From the NCBI GenBank assembly GCA_012838705.1, contig DUOT01000109.1, forward strand, positions 8,578 to 72,577: 64,000 bases of DNA, given 5' to 3'. Below, in pieces: positions 16,866 through 63,441 of this stretch. How positions within the stretch are numbered: the first letter of the stretch is position 1; each line of letters opens with the position of its first letter. The notes beneath the pieces are model-generated. The model was not told where the DNA came from and did not search any database. It saw only the letters and a list, made by a program, of their open reading frames with translations. This DNA comes from Acholeplasmataceae bacterium. Its GTDB lineage: Bacteria > Bacillota_I > Bacilli_A > ML615J-28 > CAG-698. Made by a program: the position numbers and the translations under genes.

Positions 16866-16975
16866 TGAAAATAATTAAATGTTGTGGTATAATAAGCAAG
16901 GTTAATACCAAATCACGATGTTCCGCTACTATTGTCATGATAGGTATGAACATTGGCAGAAGGAGCGTGAATTTA
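16866..16975 (+). promoter_or_regulatory. rplS promoter plus a 5' leader of about 80 nt (candidate L19 autoregulatory leader)
   Basis: TTGAAA, 16 bp spacer, TGgTATAAT. A structured leader follows, ending in RBS AGAAGGAG. The ORF-track protein [10 protein letters not shown].. across this region is non-coding. Confidence 0.4.
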
Positions 16976-18780: not shown

Positions 18781-19764
18781 ATGAATCAACCAAAAATTTA
18801 TGATATTGCTGGTGCAGCAGGTGTTAGCCTTGCAACAGTATCAAGGGTTTTAAATCATCCGGAAAAAGTAAAGAAATCAACTCGTGAAAAAGTTTTACGA
18901 ATTATAAAAGAAAAAGGTTATAAACCTAATGCCAATGCTAGAGGATTAGCTAGTCGTAGATCAACTACAGTCGCGATTGTAGTTCCGACTGTTTTACGAG
19001 CATCGATTTCAGAAATGATTCAAGGAATTGTTGATAGTGCTAAAAATTTTGGCTATTCAATAAGACTTTTTGTTAATGATGAGGATGAGGATCAAGTTGA
19101 AACTTGGAGAGAAGTAATAGCTTCAAGCGTTGATGGAATTCTTTTCATGAGTGATGAAATGGATGATGAGACTTACGAGCTAATTGAAAATACTCCAGTG
19201 CCAGTTATTTTTGTTAATGCTATTTCAAAAAATTCTAATTATGGTAGTGTGAGTATTGACAATGAAGGCTGTGCATATAGAATTACTAAAGAAATGATTG
19301 ACCGCGGTAATAAAAATATATTATTCATTGGTACTGAACATAATTATGCTATTAATAACTTAAAAGAAATTGGTTATCGCAAAGCTATGGAAGAGGCAGG
19401 ACTTATTCCTAATACTATTAAATCTTCTGGTGATATAAGTAAAAATGAAGTTCAGTTTAATGAATACTTAGATAATAATCGACCTGAAGTTGTGCTTTCT
19501 GCTCGTGATTCAATTGCGATTTCATTTATGAATGTTGCAACCAAACGAGGAATTAAAGTACCAGACGAGATGCAAGTTATCGGTTTTCAAAACACAAGAT
19601 ATGCTGAACTATCAAATCCAAAACTAACTTGTGTTGAGACTCCTATTTATGAAATCGGTAATAAAGCAATGGCAAACCTGACACAGCTAATGAAAAATGA
19701 AGATGTAGAACCTGAAAATACATTTATTGATTATCAAGTTATATGGCGTGAATCAACTAAATAA
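18781..19764 (+). CDS. ccpA: LacI-family regulator, likely catabolite control protein A
   Basis: HTH IYDIAGAAGVSLATVSRVLN. Collinear with CcpA (RGLASRRSTTVAIVVP...). Lies next to tyrS, as ccpA does in B. subtilis. Confidence 0.5.
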   Translation: MNQPKIYDIAGAAGVSLATVSRVLNHPEKVKKSTREKVLRIIKEKGYKPNANARGLASRRSTTVAIVVPTVLRASISEMIQGIVDSAKNFGYSIRLFVNDEDEDQVETWREVIASSVDGILFMSDEMDDETYELIENTPVPVIFVNAISKNSNYGSVSIDNEGCAYRITKEMIDRGNKNILFIGTEHNYAINNLKEIGYRKAMEEAGLIPNTIKSSGDISKNEVQFNEYLDNNRPEVVLSARDSIAISFMNVATKRGIKVPDEMQVIGFQNTRYAELSNPKLTCVETPIYEIGNKAMANLTQLMKNEDVEPENTFIDYQVIWRESTK

Positions 19765-19789
19765 AAACGATGATTAAACCGAAGTATAA

Positions 19790-19955
19790 ATCTAATATGT
19801 AAAGTATAGAGAGATAGTGGTTGGTGAAAACTATCACATATGGATTTAGAATTACAGTTTAGGAGTTTTGTTATTATTAAAGTGCACATTTTATAAATGT
19901 GAACTAAGGTGGTACCGCTGGAAAAATTCTAGTCCTTAGATTTAAGGACTTTTTA
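19790..19955 (+). promoter_or_regulatory. T-box riboswitch leader of tyrS
   Basis: AGAGA / AGTGG stem-I elements; candidate Tyr specifier UACA near 19853; T-box AAGGTGGTACCGC (19906-19918); terminator AGTCCTTA..AAGGACT followed by TTTT. Confidence 0.8.
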
Positions 19956-37322: not shown

Positions 37323-37567
37323 TTGAATATAAAATACCTTCGTGATATAATAATATTAAATCGATGAGAAAGAAGTAGTAGTATTGCTTACTTATTCAAG
37401 AGAGGAAAACATTGGTGGAAGTTTTCTATAAGGACAATATGAATTCATCTTTCGAGAGGTTCTAATCAAACCCGCTTAAGTAGCGTTAAAAACTTGCGAG
37501 GGCATCGAAAGATGAACTAAGGTGGTACCGCGAAATATTCGTCCTTAGATTTTCTAAGGATTTTTTT
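37323..37567 (+). promoter_or_regulatory. pheST promoter and T-box riboswitch leader
   Basis: TTGAAT, 17 bp spacer, TATAAT (37323-51). T-box AAGGTGGTACCGCG (37519-32). Terminator TCCTTAG..CTAAGGA followed by T7. UUC codons occur in the stem-I region. Confidence 0.8.
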
Positions 37568-59310: not shown

Positions 59311-59532
59311 ATGGCAGGCTATCGTCGACGTAAAAAAGTTTGTTATTTTACAGAGAATAAAATAGAAAAAATAGATTTTACAAACTATGAATTATTAAAG
59401 AGATTTATTTCTGATCGCGGTAAAATTTTACCACGTCGTGTTACTGGTACAAAAGCTAAATATCAACGTAAATTAGCTACCGCAATTAAACGTGCTCGTC
59501 ATATGGCTTTATTACCATTTGTAAAGGAATAA
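59311..59532 (+). CDS. rpsR: 30S ribosomal protein S18
   Basis: [24 protein letters not shown]. Confidence 0.95.
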
Positions 59533-59558
59533 CCATAACTTTCGTTATGGTTTTTTTA
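59531..59558 (+). terminator. Terminator of the rpsF-ssb-rpsR operon
   Basis: AACCATAAC-tttcg-TTATGGTT followed by T7. Confidence 0.6.
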
Positions 59559-59677
59559 ATGGCTTTAGTAAATAATATTTTATTTTTCCTTTAAATGTGT
59601 TATAATAAAATAGGAACTAATCAATAAAACCTAATGACACAGAAAGGAGAAAGTAGAAATATTCTACTAACAATAAA

Positions 59678-61663
59678 ATGAAAAATAATAAGATTAAGCA
59701 TTTCAGTATTCTATTTATATTAAGTATTGCAATTTTAATAATTTTTATAAATTTTTTAATATATGACCTTCCTGATGTTTTATTATATCTAGGTTTTGTT
59801 TTATTAGGTTTAGGTTTAAGTTTAGAGATTAGTTTTTTCTCTCTTTATCACCAGCGTAATCGTATGAAGTTTTTAGAAGATCGAATGAAACTATGGAATA
59901 GTATTTCTTTCCGTGTCAAAAAGGCTGGAGAAATAGCTTTTAATGAAATGCCGATTGGGATTGTTGTTTTTAATCCTAATTTACAAATTGAATGGGCAAA
60001 TAATTATGCAAAAGAAATATTTTTAAGTCCATTAGTAGATCGTAATTTTCGAAATATAGATATTAATTTAGCGGACAATATTATTAAAAATAAAAAAGAG
60101 TTTATTGTAACTTTATACGGTAAGACATATTCATGTAGATTATTAATATCTGAAAATATTATATATTTAACTGATATTACTGAAAAAATTGCTTTAATGG
60201 AAAAATATGATCGGAGAATACTAGCCTTAGGAATTGTTAATTTAGATAATTTTGAAACTGCTTTAGGAGTTTTAGATGCTAAGGATCGTTCAATTCAAGT
60301 AAGTAATTTAATTGGAATATTAACTGAATGGGCAGATAAATATAATGTGTCTATAAAAGGTTATAGTGATGAGAGATTTATATTAATTCTTGATAAACAA
60401 AATTTAAATAGTTTAATTCAATCTAAATTTGATGTTCTTGATAATATTAAAGAATATTGTAATCGTGAGAATTTACGGATTACTGCTAGTATGGGTATTG
60501 CTTGTCGTGATATTGATACTATTGACTTAATGGATGAAGCAAATGAACAGCTTGAGCTAGCACTTAATCGTGGTGGTAATCAAGTAGTTGTAAAGGTAGA
60601 TGATGAAACACTTTACTTCGGTGCTAAAACAGAATCTATTGAAGCGAGAACTCCAATTAGTATTCGTTTCAAAACTGAAGAGTTAGTAGAACTAATTAAA
60701 AATGCAAGTAATATATTCATTCTAAGTCATAAATATATGGATGCGGATGGATTTGGATCTGCAATCGCACTCCGTGCAATTTGTAAGTCATTAGATCGAG
60801 AAGCAAAAATAATTTTTGATGAAGATTTAGTTGATGAAACAGTTGCAAATATTTATCAATCGATTAAAAAAGAACATATTATTTTTTTAAATGCTTTAAT
60901 TGATCCAAAAAAAGCTTATAATGAAATGACTGATGATTCACTTTTAATAATTACTGATTGTCAGTATCAAAGTCTTTTAATGGATGAAAAAGTATTTAAA
61001 AGGGCAAAACAAATTGCAATCATTGACCATCATCGTCAAAATACGATGGCAATTAGTGAAGCAAATTATATATATATTAATCCATCTGCTTCATCATCAG
61101 TAGAATTAATTGTAGAGATGCTAGATTTTATTGATGGTTATTATCTTTCTGAAATTGAAGCAACATGGTTATTAATTGGTATTCGTGTTGATACTAATAA
61201 CTTTGCATATCGAACAACAAGTCGAACATTTAATGTAGTTGCGAAACTGCAATCACTTGGTGCTGATATGGGGAAGGTCAGAAGGTATCTACGTGAAGAA
61301 TTTACTGATTATGTAAAGAGGACATCAATTCTAAACAATATGGAAATATTTGATGGTGAATATGGTATTGCTCTTTGCGATGATGATATTTATGAGCGGG
61401 CATTCCTTGCTAAGGTTGCTGACAATATGATTGGTGTTAAAGGAATTAAAATTGCATTTTGTATTGGTAAAATAAGTGAAGATACAGTTGGGATAAGTGC
61501 TCGTAGTTTAGAAGATGTAAATGTTCAAGTGATTATGGAGCGTCTTGGTGGTGGTGGACATTTTAATAATGCTGCTACACAAATAAAAGATATTACGATT
61601 GAAGATGCGAAAAAATTACTTGAAAAAACATTAAAATTATATGAAGGAGAAGGTCGTAAAAAT
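59678..61663 (+). CDS. gdpP: Cyclic-di-AMP phosphodiesterase GdpP (2TM-PAS-degenerate GGDEF-DHH/DHHA1), no stop codon before rplI
   Basis: Two N-terminal TM helices, a PAS-like region, DHH (AIIDHHRQN) and DHHA1 (GGGGH). The frame continues directly into rplI. Confidence 0.8.
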
Positions 61664-62110
61664 ATGAAAATTATACTAACAAAAGACATTAAAGGTCGTG
61701 GAAAGAAAAATGATATAATTGAGGTTCCGACAGGATATGCAAACCATCTTCTCAGAAATAAACAAGCAATTGCTGCTACTCCAGATAATATTAAGCAATT
61801 AGAATATGAAAAAAATCTTGAAAAAGAACGTGAATTAAAACATCTTAAAGAGATGGAAGCATTGAAGGAAAAAGTAGATTCTTCACCTCTAAAAATTGAA
61901 GTCAAAGTAGGAGAAAGTGGAAAGTTATTTGGTTCTGTAAGTACTAAAAATATTGTTGATGAATTTAAAAAACAATATGGTATTGAATTAGATAAAAGAA
62001 AATTAATATTAGATAGTGAGATTAATGGCCTTGGTACTTATCAAATTCCAATTCAATTACATAAAAATATTGTAGCCACAATCACACTATTTGTAGTTGA
62101 GAAAGTATAA
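61664..62110 (+). CDS. rplI: 50S ribosomal protein L9
   Basis: MKIILTKDIKGRGKKNDIIEVPTGYANHLL is collinear with B. subtilis L9. An internal RBS GGAGAAGG lies 10-14 nt upstream of the ATG. Confidence 0.85.
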   Translation: MKIILTKDIKGRGKKNDIIEVPTGYANHLLRNKQAIAATPDNIKQLEYEKNLEKERELKHLKEMEALKEKVDSSPLKIEVKVGESGKLFGSVSTKNIVDEFKKQYGIELDKRKLILDSEINGLGTYQIPIQLHKNIVATITLFVVEKV

Positions 62111-62112
62111 CT

Positions 62113-63441
62113 ATGGAAAAAAGAGAGAGAAGAATTCCTTATAATTTAGAAGCAGAGAAATATATTCTTGGTTGTATGTTGCTTGAACCAACCATTATTG
62201 GTGAGGTTGTATCGCGAATTTCCGCTAATAATTTTTATGGTGCGGAAAATAAAAATATTATGAAGGCGATAACAAATCTTTATGAAAATAATGAAGTAAT
62301 CGACCAAGTGAAAGTTGCTGATGAATTACAAAGGATGAATTTGCTAGAAGCTAGTGGGGGGATTAATTATTTGTTCGATATTATCGAAAGTATTCCTTCA
62401 GTAGCTAATGTAGATGCATATCTTGAAGTTATTGAAGAAAAGTCGCTTTTAAGAGAACTTTTAAGAGTTACTGATCGTGTTCGCGATAAGGTTCTTGAAG
62501 GTGATTTATCGTTTTCCGATATTGGTGCCAAAGCTGAAGAAGAAATGTTACGCGTTATTAATATGCGGAGAACTGAAGATGTAAAGAAGATTCATCGATT
62601 TACTAACCGTGTTTTAGAAATTATCGAAACAAATAAAAATAGCGATGGTCGGGTAACCGGACTTGATACTGGTTTTGAAGATTTAAATAAACTTACCTTT
62701 GGTTTCCAGAAAGGTGAATTAATAGTATTAGCTGCTCGTCCGGGGATTGGTAAATCAGCATTCGCATTAAATGTTGCCGCACATGCTTGTCAACATCATA
62801 ATGCAAGTGTTGCTTTCTTCTCATTAGAAATGGGAATTGACCAATTAACGATGCGACTTTTTAGTAGTTTTTCAGGACTATCAATTTCAAAAATTCGAAG
62901 TGGTAAATTAACAAGCAAAGAAATGGCAGCATTACTAGTTGCTAAGGCAGCTGTCGATAAGTTGAACTTATATTTAGATGAAACAAGTAATACTAATTTA
63001 AATGATATTAAAGCAAAATGTTTGAAATTAAAACGTGAAGGCTTATTAGATTTAATAATTATTGACTACTTACAATTAATCCAAGTACCGAATTTTAAAG
63101 GTACTAGAAATGAAGAAGTAGGAAGAATATCGAGAGGATTAAAACTTATGGCTCGGGAATTAGAGGTTCCTGTCCTTGCACTATCACAACTTTCTCGTGG
63201 TGTGGAATTAAGTGAAGATAAAAGACCACGTCTTGCCCATCTTCGAGAATCAGGTAGTATTGAGCAAGATGCCGATATCGTTATGTTCCTTCATCGTGAT
63301 CAACCAAGTAAAGATGAAGCAGTTCAAGTTCGTAACCATCGAACTGAGTTAATAGTTGCTAAGAATAGGCAAGGAGCAACCGATAGTATTTTCCTACTAT
63401 TTAAAGGAGCCCAAAGTACGTTTTGTAAGTATGAAGGATAA
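62113..63441 (+). CDS. dnaB: Replicative DNA helicase (DnaB family; dnaC in B. subtilis nomenclature)
   Basis: Walker A GIGKSAFALN, an N-terminal DnaB domain, and position after rplI. Confidence 0.95.
   Translation: MEKRERRIPYNLEAEKYILGCMLLEPTIIGEVVSRISANNFYGAENKNIMKAITNLYENNEVIDQVKVADELQRMNLLEASGGINYLFDIIESIPSVANVDAYLEVIEEKSLLRELLRVTDRVRDKVLEGDLSFSDIGAKAEEEMLRVINMRRTEDVKKIHRFTNRVLEIIETNKNSDGRVTGLDTGFEDLNKLTFGFQKGELIVLAARPGIGKSAFALNVAAHACQHHNASVAFFSLEMGIDQLTMRLFSSFSGLSISKIRSGKLTSKEMAALLVAKAAVDKLNLYLDETSNTNLNDIKAKCLKLKREGLLDLIIIDYLQLIQVPNFKGTRNEEVGRISRGLKLMARELEVPVLALSQLSRGVELSEDKRPRLAHLRESGSIEQDADIVMFLHRDQPSKDEAVQVRNHRTELIVAKNRQGATDSIFLLFKGAQSTFCKYEG

What the first reader, a model, noticed from the sequence alone, without database searches (positions are those of the whole stretch)
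59678..62110. gdpP and rplI lie in one continuous reading frame, giving an apparent GdpP-L9 fusion
The c-di-AMP phosphodiesterase ORF has no in-frame stop and runs ...KLYEGEGRKN-MKIILTKDIKGRGKK... directly into ribosomal protein L9. In Bacillus these are separate adjacent genes (yybT-rplI). There is a usable RBS (GGAGAAGG) for independent L9 initiation inside the gdpP 3' end. So either L9 is made both free and as a GdpP C-terminal fusion, or the gdpP stop codon has been lost by mutation or sequencing error. A c-di-AMP phosphodiesterase tethered to a ribosomal protein would be functionally provocative.
Basis: seen in the sequence. Interest (0 to 1): 0.5.

Follow-up and report, generated by a model that had tools for sequence, protein, structure and literature searches.

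The report
Conserved GdpP–ribosomal protein L9 fusion gene
The enzyme that degrades the bacterial signal c-di-AMP and ribosomal protein L9 really are encoded as one gene here; this is an old fusion already recorded in Acholeplasma-like bacteria, and it keeps an internal start signal that very probably still makes free L9.

Summary
ORF 59678..62110 (+) encodes 810 aa: a complete GdpP (residues 1-662) runs without a stop into a complete L9 (663-810). It is not an error. 67 species-level genomes and more than 200 protein clusters, down to about 40% identity, carry the same fusion. NCBIfam already has a model for it (NF011110, 'putative bifunctional signaling protein/50S ribosomal protein L9'). 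Grosjean et al. 2014 flag rplI as 'fusion' in Acholeplasma laidlawii and three phytoplasmas.

Two results go beyond the annotation. First, in all 68 fused genes the L9 entry codon is a start codon (66 ATG, 2 GTG). It is preceded by a Shine-Dalgarno sequence as strong as those of free rplI genes, and this sequence is kept in different codon registers. So free L9 is very probably made by internal initiation alongside the full-length fusion. Second, four related lineages lost that start codon and SD at the junction. All of them carry a separate rplI immediately downstream, yet they keep a degenerate fused L9-like domain. In the one close pair compared (L065/L066) that domain is under purifying selection. 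The fused module therefore probably has a GdpP-linked role of its own.

Verdict: a real, divergent new member of a known but unstudied fusion family. Interest is moderate.

The parts
59678..62110 (+). Single gdpP-rplI fusion ORF of 810 codons plus a TAA stop
   Evidence: ORF list and sequence; full-length match to NCBIfam NF011110, profile positions 55-835 of 838, 656.8 bits.
59678..61663 (+). GdpP moiety, residues 1-662. It has two N-terminal hydrophobic helices, PAS (59915-60178), a degenerate GGDEF (60236-60607), DHH (60710-61183) and DHHA1 (61385-61636).
   Evidence: Pfam; the catalytic residues D355, D357, D427, D450-H451-H452 and G625-G626-G627-H628 are invariant in 79 fused homologues. 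PDB 9n0l_A (c-di-AMP phosphodiesterase) matches residues 88-653, E 4.9e-80; the AF2 model has helices 2-27 and 33-90.
61643..61653 (+). Internal Shine-Dalgarno-like sequence GAAGGAGAAGG. It is read as codons for E-G-E-G of the linker.
   Evidence: duplex with the 16S 3' tail is -7.8 kcal/mol; it is the best SD among the 19 in-frame ATG/GTG codons of this ORF. The equivalent site averages -9.7 kcal/mol in 68 fused genes, against -1.7 for 1678 other in-frame ATG/GTG codons.
61664..61666 (+). Internal start codon (ATG), which is Met663 of the fusion and Met1 of L9
   Evidence: M663 is invariant in 79 fused proteins; the codon is ATG in 66 and GTG in 2 of 68 loci, and never a non-start codon.
61664..62107 (+). 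L9 (bL9) moiety of 148 aa: N-terminal rRNA-binding domain (61664-61801), a long connecting helix, and the C-terminal domain (61850-62098)
   Evidence: TIGR00158 scores 116-121 bits against a cut-off of 58.6. PDB 1div matches residues 663-809, E 1.1e-30; the AF2 model shows the canonical L9 secondary structure.
62108..62115 (+). TAA stop of the fusion, with the dnaB ATG (62113) 2 nt later. There is no second rplI.
   Evidence: there is only one L9-coding region in the whole 64-kb window, and dnaB follows it directly; the dnaB SD is weak (-3.4).
59643..59668 (+). 5' leader of gdpP. AAAGGAG (59643-59649) lies 28 nt upstream of the start, and a 7-bp hairpin (59652-59668) sits in between. There is no SD at normal spacing.
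   Evidence: +2.8 kcal/mol at the gdpP start. (hairpin -5.6 kcal/mol, z -3.6).
59531..59552 (+). Terminator-like hairpin after rpsR. It marks the upstream boundary of the gdpP-rplI-dnaB unit.
   Evidence: No terminator-like site was found between gdpP, L9 and dnaB.

Best explanation
This is an ancient, selectively maintained fusion of gdpP (a membrane-anchored c-di-AMP phosphodiesterase) with rplI (ribosomal protein bL9). It is characteristic of Acholeplasmatales-like low-GC Bacilli. The one ORF most likely gives two products.

1. Ribosomes that start at the poorly signalled gdpP start codon have no stop to meet, so they make the 810-aa GdpP-L9 protein.
2. Ribosomes that load at the conserved internal Shine-Dalgarno sequence and ATG 61664 make free 148-aa L9 in the much larger amounts that ribosomes need.

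What is shown:
- The fusion exists and is conserved.
- The internal SD and start codon are conserved.
- The start signal is lost exactly where a separate rplI exists.
- A fused L9-like domain is retained in those lineages, and it is under purifying selection in the one close pair compared.

What is inferred:
- Both products are actually made.
- The fused L9 module has a GdpP-specific role. This could be structural, RNA-binding or ribosome-docking. It might couple c-di-AMP turnover to the translation apparatus.
For: Fusion is real and conserved.
- one ORF, complete domains on both sides.
- at least 120 clusters share the architecture.
- 67 of 67 GTDB species representatives above ~40% identity are fused in one frame. 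Lactobacillales are separate.
- NCBIfam NF011110 gives a full-length match.
- Grosjean et al. 2014 flag RPLI as 'fusion' in A. laidlawii ACL_0196, PAM012, PA0149 and ATP_00177.

Internal initiation.
- the entry codon is ATG in 66 loci and GTG in 2, never anything else.
- an SD-like motif lies upstream in every locus. Its mean is -9.7 kcal/mol, against -1.7 for 1678 other in-frame ATG/GTG codons. It ranks first in 66 of 68 ORFs.
- the motif is kept in different codon registers (AAG GAG GAA = KEE, GAT GGA GGT = DGG, AAA GGA GAA = KGE). This points to selection on the RNA rather than on the peptide.
- free rplI genes average -9.4, so the internal sites are equally strong. The window's own gdpP start has no SD at normal spacing.

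Natural experiment.
- four lineages (L065/66, L068, L081, L082-85) have a non-start codon and background SD energy (-2.8 to +0.6) at the junction, and a degenerate G-Y-A-N-x-L motif. All of them, and only them, carry a canonical rplI with its own SD between the fusion and dnaB.

Sole L9 source.
- one L9 region per locus and in the whole window.
- in 1.84 billion representatives, full-length free ~147-aa L9s appear only at 48% identity or below. Every full-length hit above that is a fusion, and the remaining hits carry L9 at their C-terminal end or are partial sequences.

The fused module matters.
- 52% of the eight linker codons are one substitution from a stop (4.65 paths per linker), yet 0 of 68 have a stop.
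- the fused L9-like domain has dN/dS 0.033 between L065 and L066. The GdpP core has 0.041.
- the two-L9 lineages nest inside the fused clade.
Against: - There are no protein, Ribo-seq or transcript data for any member, so both products are inferred.
- SD-like sequences inside genes can also act as pause sites.
- In the window itself the SD is of moderate strength (-7.8 kcal/mol) and sits rather far from the ATG (10-14 nt).
- Whole genomes could not be scanned, so a second rplI far from this locus is excluded only indirectly.
- The AF2 model gives a linker of only ~4-5 residues and a low pTM of 0.38. Whether the fused L9 could reach its 23S rRNA site is unknown.
- The more divergent pair of two-L9 genomes shows fast evolution of the fused domain (aa identity 46%, dN/dS about 0.64 with saturated dS). 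Constraint on that domain is therefore weaker than on true L9.
- The NJ tree has no support values.
- A codon-bias test for higher translation of the L9 part had no discriminating power.
Confidence: 0.72

Rival explanations
1. Artefact or recent accident. The gdpP stop codon was lost through a sequencing or assembly error, or through a recent mutation in this one genome, and the two genes are normally separate.
For: Separate gdpP and rplI is the textbook arrangement, seen in L071-L080 and in the literature. In Enterococcus sp. (L078) the stop lies in frame only 6 nt upstream of the rplI ATG, so a single base change would mimic a fusion.
Against: The same fusion is found in 67 independent species-level genomes and in more than 200 protein clusters from JGI, ENA, NCBI and Logan assemblies, at 40-77% identity. 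It is curated as NF011110. It is flagged in four finished Acholeplasma and phytoplasma genomes.
Confidence: 0.01
2. Fusion only. L9 is made solely as the C-terminal part of GdpP, and it serves the ribosome while tethered to the membrane enzyme. The internal SD-like sequence is not used for initiation.
For: The open frame guarantees that a full-length product is made. The fused L9 keeps all conserved L9 features. L9 is dispensable in some Mollicutes (PMC4014445), so sub-stoichiometric L9 might be tolerated.
Against: A ribosomal protein is needed in far larger numbers than a polytopic signalling enzyme (inference from general knowledge). In the window the gdpP start has no SD at normal spacing, while the internal site does. 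The rule that the entry codon is only ATG or GTG, and the register-independent SD conservation, have no explanation under this model. Both signals decay as soon as a free rplI is present. The ~4-5-residue linker would bring a dimeric ~75-kDa enzyme right against the rRNA site (inference).
Confidence: 0.07
3. Neutral read-through. Free L9 from internal initiation is the only functional L9. The L9 tail on GdpP is a harmless passenger with no role, and it is kept merely because nothing selects for a stop codon.
For: A single substitution can create the fusion (L078). No function for the tail has been demonstrated. The fused L9-like domain evolves fast in L082 versus L084. The literature searches found no phenotype or biochemistry for the fusion.
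Against: There are about 4.65 single-nucleotide routes to a stop per 8-codon linker, yet no stop in 68 lineages with saturated synonymous divergence. No reversion to separate genes appears anywhere inside the fused clade. Lineages that gained a free rplI still keep an open ~146-149-codon L9-like domain, with dN/dS 0.033 in the one close pair. Pfam L9_C is still detectable in it.
Confidence: 0.15
4. Polyprotein. The 810-aa precursor is cut by a protease at the linker to release L9.
For: The linker is a short exposed coil with a dip in pLDDT (block 651-660 = 66). Nothing in the sequence data excludes cleavage.
Against: The linker peptide is not conserved (EGEGRKN, DDGGLST, KEES and others), whereas the nucleotide SD motif and the start codon are. 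Cleavage would again tie L9 output to GdpP output. The model does not explain the ATG/GTG-only rule.
Confidence: 0.05

Closest known systems
NCBIfam NF011110 (PRK14538) 'putative bifunctional signaling protein/50S ribosomal protein L9'. The rplI 'fusion' genes of Acholeplasma laidlawii (ACL_0196) and phytoplasmas (PAM012, PA0149, ATP_00177) noted in Grosjean et al. 2014 are presumed, from memory, to be the same thing.
   Same: Same end-to-end architecture (TM-PAS-GGDEF-DHH-DHHA1-L9_N-L9_C). The window protein matches profile positions 55-835 of 838. The table in PMC4014445 flags rplI as fused in all four Acholeplasma/phytoplasma genomes it covers, but it does not name the fusion partner. The gdpP-rplI-dnaB gene order is also the same: rplI lies next to dnaB in phytoplasmas.
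   Different: The score of 656.8 bits is below the curated equivalog cut-off of 707, so this is a more distant branch than the seed set. It comes from an uncultured 30%-GC 'Bacilli bacterium' lineage whose nearest genome has 76% identity (L001). PGAP names such proteins simply '50S ribosomal protein L9'. The sequences of the cultured members were not available here, so their junctions were not inspected.
GdpP/YybT of Bacillus, Staphylococcus and Streptococcus, with rplI as a separate downstream gene in the same operon
   Same: Same enzyme domains and catalytic motifs (PDB 9n0l and 5xsi). Same conserved gdpP-rplI-dnaB/dnaC operon. In some of these genomes the rplI SD already lies inside or right after the gdpP 3' end (L078).
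   Different: A stop codon separates the two genes, so there are two polypeptides only. No physical link between GdpP and L9 has been reported in the papers searched.
Genes that give two proteins from one frame by internal initiation: infB (IF2 alpha/beta), clpB, cheA long/short, ccmM. These examples are cited from general knowledge and were not tested here.
   Same: An in-frame start codon with its own SD lies inside a longer ORF. It yields a full-length protein plus a C-terminal 'nested' protein.
   Different: In those cases the short form is a truncated version of the same functional protein. Here the nested product is a complete, independent ribosomal protein of separate evolutionary origin. 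For this gene the two products are inferred and have not been observed.
Related two-L9 lineages found here (L065/L066, L068, L081, L082-L085)
   Same: The same GdpP-L9 fusion backbone and the same locus. They nest within the fused clade.
   Different: The junction start codon and SD are lost, and the G-Y-A-N-x-L motif of the fused copy is degenerate. A separate canonical rplI has been inserted before dnaB. The window has the single-L9 form.

Membership tests
GdpP (membrane c-di-AMP phosphodiesterase, DHH/DHHA1 type) | Domain order: PAS_GdpP, degenerate GGDEF_GdpP, DHH, DHHA1 | tested here: met
   all four Pfam domains score above their gathering cut-offs and are in the canonical order. PDB 9n0l_A matches residues 88-653, E 4.9e-80.
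GdpP (membrane c-di-AMP phosphodiesterase, DHH/DHHA1 type) | Catalytic motifs DxD, DHH and GGGH | tested here: met
   D355, D357, D450-H451-H452 and G625-G626-G627-H628 are invariant in 79 homologues. The sequence reads DADGFG, IIDHHR and GGGGHF.
GdpP (membrane c-di-AMP phosphodiesterase, DHH/DHHA1 type) | Two N-terminal transmembrane helices | tested here: met
   hydrophobic stretches at about residues 8-27 and 33-55; the AF2 model has helices 2-27 and 33-90. No dedicated TM predictor was run.
GdpP (membrane c-di-AMP phosphodiesterase, DHH/DHHA1 type) | Hydrolysis of c-di-AMP to pApA | not testable with these tools
   This needs an enzyme assay.
Ribosomal protein bL9 (rplI) | L9 N-terminal and C-terminal domains joined by a long helix, with a full-length match to the L9 equivalog model | tested here: met
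   (L9_N 57.5 bits, L9_C 90.2 bits). (TIGR00158 116-121 bits against a cut-off of 58.6). (1div E 1.1e-30). (secondary structure beta-beta-alpha-beta, helix 702-735, C-terminal domain).
Ribosomal protein bL9 (rplI) | Syntenic position between gdpP and dnaB, downstream of rpsF-ssb-rpsR | tested here: met
Ribosomal protein bL9 (rplI) | It is the organism's functional L9, i.e. the only copy, and it is incorporated in the 50S subunit | tested here: inconclusive
   Only one L9 region exists in the 64-kb window and in each fused locus. No free full-length L9 above 48% identity exists in 1.84 billion representatives. Whole genomes were not scanned, and ribosome incorporation is not testable here.
NCBIfam NF011110 bifunctional signaling protein/L9 | Whole-protein score at or above the curated equivalog cut-off (707 bits) | tested here: not met
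   656.8 bits. The match does cover profile positions 55-835 of 838. The architecture is the same, but this is a more distant lineage than the one the model was built for.
NCBIfam NF011110 bifunctional signaling protein/L9 | GdpP and L9 in one polypeptide with no stop | tested here: met
Two-product genes with in-frame internal initiation (infB, clpB, cheA type) | Conserved in-frame start codon with its own SD inside the ORF | tested here: met
   The signals are lost only where a free rplI exists.
Two-product genes with in-frame internal initiation (infB, clpB, cheA type) | Both polypeptides observed in cells | not testable with these tools
   This needs proteomics, a western blot or initiation profiling.

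The most novel reading that the evidence does not exclude
The L9 module fused to GdpP is not just a way of encoding L9. It is a working part of the signalling enzyme: an RNA- or ribosome-docking arm that places the membrane c-di-AMP phosphodiesterase next to ribosomes, or lets it sense their state. GdpP is known to be inhibited by the ribosome-derived alarmone ppGpp (from general knowledge).

This would give the first physical explanation for the gdpP-rplI linkage that is conserved across Firmicutes. The lineages that regained a free rplI but kept a constrained, diverged L9-like domain on GdpP would then be a case of subfunctionalisation of a ribosomal protein into a signalling-protein domain.
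Probability: 0.25. Interest if true: 0.7.

Novelty: new member of a known kind. Interest (0 to 1): 0.4.

Why it matters
gdpP and rplI sit together in one operon throughout the Firmicutes. Reviews still explain this only as 'co-ordination with growth'. A fusion maintained across a whole clade is classic Rosetta-stone evidence that the two proteins are functionally, and perhaps physically, linked.

The comparative pattern found here turns that hint into testable predictions. The pattern has three parts: the internal start signal is kept when the fusion is the only L9 source, it is lost when a free rplI is present, and the fused L9-like domain is retained either way. The tests can be done in a cultivable organism, Acholeplasma laidlawii.

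There is also a practical point for annotation. These 810-aa proteins are currently named just '50S ribosomal protein L9', which hides a c-di-AMP phosphodiesterase. The nested L9 product is not annotated at all.

Tried and rejected
- Sequencing error or recent stop loss: rejected, because the fusion is conserved.
- Alternative genetic code or recoding at the junction: rejected. The junction codons are ordinary sense codons and the frame is continuous.
- Promoter scan for an internal rplI promoter: uninformative. It found 26 sites against 31 +/- 5.7 expected in shuffles. No terminator lies between the parts.
- Codon-bias test for heavier translation of the L9 segment (C- versus T-ending Phe/Tyr/Ile/Asn codons pooled over 66 loci). 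L9 gave 0.253 and the GdpP part 0.216 (p about 0.001). But dnaB gave 0.258 and rpsR 0.217, so the measure does not separate highly from weakly expressed genes in these genomes. The test was discarded.
- AF2 model: good local confidence (mean pLDDT 86) but pTM 0.38. No conclusion was drawn about how L9 packs against DHHA1 or whether the fused L9 could dock on 23S rRNA. No fold search was run because the sequence matches to PDB were already unambiguous.
- Literature: searches on gdpP/rplI, YybT/L9, 'bifunctional signaling protein', c-di-AMP with 'fused', c-di-AMP with Acholeplasma, and DHH with phytoplasma found no paper discussing the fusion's biology. The only trace is the 'fusion' flag in a supplementary table.
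- dN/dS on the distant two-L9 pair L082/L084: synonymous sites are saturated, so only the L065/L066 pair was used.
Only indirect evidence is available.
Full report
**1. Observation**

Positions 59678..62110 (+) form one 810-codon ORF.
- Residues 1-662 carry the full GdpP domain set: PAS_GdpP 80-167, GGDEF_GdpP 187-310, DHH 345-502 and DHHA1 570-653.
- Residues 663-810 are a complete L9: Ribosomal_L9_N 663-708 and L9_C 725-807. All six Pfam domains score above their gathering cut-offs.
- The L9 part passes the TIGR00158 equivalog cut-off (116-121 bits against 58.6).
- The junction reads ...GAA GGA GAA GGT CGT AAA AAT ATG AAA.... These are ordinary sense codons, so no genetic code puts a stop there.
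The L9 ATG is at 61664.
- Context: rpsF-ssb-rpsR, then a terminator-like hairpin (59531-59552), then gdpP-rplI. dnaB starts 2 nt after the L9 stop.
- The window has 30.1% G+C.

**2. It is not an error**

- An identical protein lies on an independent JGI contig. At least 120 clusters at 50-77% identity have the same length (~810 aa) and the same six Pfam domains. They come from JGI, ENA, NCBI and Logan assemblies.
- A scan of one genome per GTDB species returned 80 loci. I re-analysed these with tblastn and frame tracking.
- All 67 loci above ~40% identity (L001-L064, L067, L069, L070) have GdpP and L9 in one frame with no stop. They are labelled Bacilli, Acholeplasmatales, Acholeplasmataceae, Mollicutes, Tenericutes or 'Coprobacillus sp. 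CAG:698'.
- Unfused relatives at 31-36% identity also made the list. Any unfused relative of higher identity would therefore have ranked above them, so the result is not a selection artefact.
- The Lactobacillales loci (L071-L080) have the classical separate genes.

**3. It is already recorded**

- NCBIfam holds NF011110 (PRK14538), 'putative bifunctional signaling protein/50S ribosomal protein L9'. It matches the window protein end to end (profile positions 55-835 of 838) at 656.8 bits. That is just under its equivalog cut-off of 707.
- Table S3 of Grosjean et al. 2014 (PMC4014445) marks RPLI as 'fusion' in Acholeplasma laidlawii (ACL_0196), onion yellows phytoplasma (PAM012), Ca. P. australiense (PA0149) and Ca. 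P. mali (ATP_00177). The table does not say what rplI is fused to.
- NCBI names the metagenomic relatives simply '50S ribosomal protein L9'.
- Seven literature searches found no paper that discusses what the fusion does. c-di-AMP papers mention only that gdpP and rplI share an operon.

**4. The internal start signal is under selection**

- In an alignment of 79 fused proteins, Met663 is invariant.
- At the DNA level, the entry codon in 68 loci (67 plus the window) is ATG 66 times and GTG twice (L032, L057). It is never a non-start codon.
- Every locus has an SD-like motif upstream of that codon.
- The predicted duplex with the 16S 3' tail, in the window -20..-4, averages -9.7 kcal/mol (range -5.6 to -14.7). 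For 1678 other in-frame ATG/GTG codons of the same ORFs the average is -1.7. The junction codon has the best SD in 66 of 68 ORFs.
- This equals the SD strength of free-standing rplI genes (mean -9.4).
- The linker peptide varies (EGEGRKN, DDGGLST, DKGEK, KEES and others). The GGAG/GAGG core persists in different codon registers (AAG GAG GAA, GAT GGA GGT, AAA GGA GAA). That is the signature of selection on the RNA motif rather than on the amino acids.
- In the window the internal SD gives -7.8 kcal/mol. The gdpP start has no SD at normal spacing (+2.8): AAAGGAG lies 28 nt upstream with a 7-bp hairpin in between.
- That would fit low output of the membrane enzyme and high output of L9.

**5. A natural experiment**

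- Three loci (L065, L066, L068) looked odd. GdpP continues for ~150 more codons, and then a separate L9 gene follows in another frame.
- The extension is a diverged L9. In L065, L9_C scores 46 bits and L9_N 24.5 bits. In L068, only a weak L9_C match remains.
- A protein search with the L065 fusion found more such groups. In the alignment they share two features. The junction Met is replaced by A, K, Q, I, G or L. The conserved G-[YFH]-[AG]-N-x-L motif of the L9 N-domain is degenerate.
- I predicted that all of them would have a free rplI. Contigs for P0132, P0229 and P0224 confirmed it (L081-L085).
- Across all 85 loci plus the window the dichotomy is complete.
  - A start codon at the junction goes with a single L9 region followed directly by dnaB.
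  - No start codon goes with two tandem L9 regions (a fused degenerate one and a free canonical one), then dnaB.
- At the old junction of the two-L9 lineages the SD energy is at background level (-2.8 to +0.6). Their free rplI has an SD of -8.2 to -10.2.
- So the internal signal is kept exactly when the fusion is the only source of L9. This is strong evidence that it is used to make L9.

**6. The fusion itself is maintained**

- Half of the eight linker codons are one substitution from a stop (about 4.65 routes per linker), yet none of 68 lineages has a stop.
- No lineage inside the fused clade has reverted to the separate-gene state.
- In the two-L9 lineages, where L9 supply no longer depends on the fusion, the fused L9-like domain is still an open ~146-149-codon extension.
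- Between L065 and L066 that domain has dN/dS 0.033. This is as low as the GdpP core (0.041) and lower than the free L9 (0.131).
- The more distant pair L082/L084 has saturated dS. It shows that the fused domain evolves faster than true L9 (46% against 72% identity).
- An NJ tree of GdpP cores rooted on Lactobacillales places the two-L9 lineages inside the fused clade (no support values). This suggests the order: fusion first, then duplication and subfunctionalisation.

**7. Is there another L9?**

- The window and every fused locus contain one L9 region.
- I searched the 148-aa L9 part against 1.84 billion representatives. Among the best 150 hits, 32 are 805-877-aa proteins with L9 at the extreme C-terminus. 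Others are shorter sequences that also carry L9 at their C-terminal end, probably 5'-truncated fusions, and some are partial sequences. Free full-length L9s of ~147 aa appear only at 48% identity or below, and they resemble L9s of other lineages.
- Whole genomes could not be scanned.

**8. Structure**

- The AF2 model has mean pLDDT 86 and pTM 0.38.
- The last DHHA1 helix covers residues 641-657, followed by a 4-5-residue coil and then L9 strand beta1 (662-667). The canonical L9 fold follows.
- The closest solved structures are GdpP 9n0l and 5xsi, and L9 1div.
- With so short a linker it is doubtful, but untested, that the fused copy can occupy the L9 site on 23S rRNA.

**9. Interpretation**

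The most likely picture (confidence about 0.7) is a two-product gene.
- The full-length product is a membrane-anchored GdpP-L9.
- Free L9 comes from the internal SD and ATG, in the way infB, clpB and cheA give nested products.
- The stoichiometric argument supports this: ribosomes need far more L9 than a cell needs of a signalling enzyme. This is inference.

Rivals:
- Artefact (about 0.01): refuted.
- Fusion-only L9 (about 0.07).
- Neutral read-through tail (about 0.15).
- Proteolytic release (about 0.05).

The most novel reading not excluded (about 0.25) is that the L9 module serves GdpP as an RNA- or ribosome-docking or regulatory arm. That would physically link c-di-AMP turnover to translation.

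**10. Verdict**

The feature is a divergent new member of a fusion family already catalogued in NCBIfam and noted in Mollicutes genomics, so novelty is limited. Its biology is unstudied. The comparative pattern documented here gives concrete, testable predictions. Interest: 0.4.

Noticed in passing
L065:3986-6944, L066:3965-6927, L068:3884-6792, L081:4001-6936, L082:4001-6951, L084:4001-6942: These are related lineages in which GdpP carries a diverged L9-like C-terminal domain, with no junction start codon, no SD and a degenerate G-Y-A-N-x-L motif. A separate canonical rplI follows before dnaB. The fused domain is under purifying selection in the one close pair compared, L065 versus L066 (dN/dS 0.033).
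   Followed up: yes
window 59643-59680: gdpP's own ATG (59678) has no Shine-Dalgarno at normal spacing. AAAGGAG lies 28 nt upstream, and a 7-bp hairpin (59652-59668; -5.6 kcal/mol, z -3.6) separates them. The hairpin might shorten the effective spacing or keep gdpP translation low. Conservation in relatives was not examined.
   Followed up: partly
window 62108-62115: The dnaB ATG (62113) is only 2 nt after the L9 stop and has a weak SD (-3.4 kcal/mol). This suggests translational coupling of dnaB to L9.
   Followed up: partly
L078:5930-5953 (Enterococcus sp. MMGLQ5-1): In this unfused relative the gdpP stop TAA lies in frame 6 nt upstream of the rplI ATG, between the rplI SD and the start codon. 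A single substitution would recreate a GdpP-L9 fusion with the SD already inside the linker. All ten unfused loci retrieved had the two genes in the same frame, but the tool's ranking may favour that arrangement.
   Followed up: partly
window 19761-19940, 37355-37549, 16915-16956: Rfam finds two T-box leaders and an L19 leader on the + strand. They are ordinary Firmicute cis-regulators and are unrelated to the finding.
   Followed up: no
window 61525-61905 (-): A 126-aa antisense ORF lies across the gdpP/L9 junction. It is lysine- and serine-poor and phenylalanine-rich, and it looks like a shadow ORF of the AT-rich coding strand. It was not tested.
   Followed up: no
one search hit list (P0242, P0282, P0288, P0306, P0310, P0355, P0363 and others): Many L9 homologues in the representative library are 200-277 aa long, with L9 at the N-terminus and an unexplained C-terminal extension. 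This is a different kind of L9 elongation from the one studied here.
   Followed up: no
and name columns: Public annotation calls these ~810-aa proteins just '50S ribosomal protein L9'. This hides the c-di-AMP phosphodiesterase. In the two-L9 lineages the name is applied to a protein whose L9 part is degenerate.
   Followed up: partly
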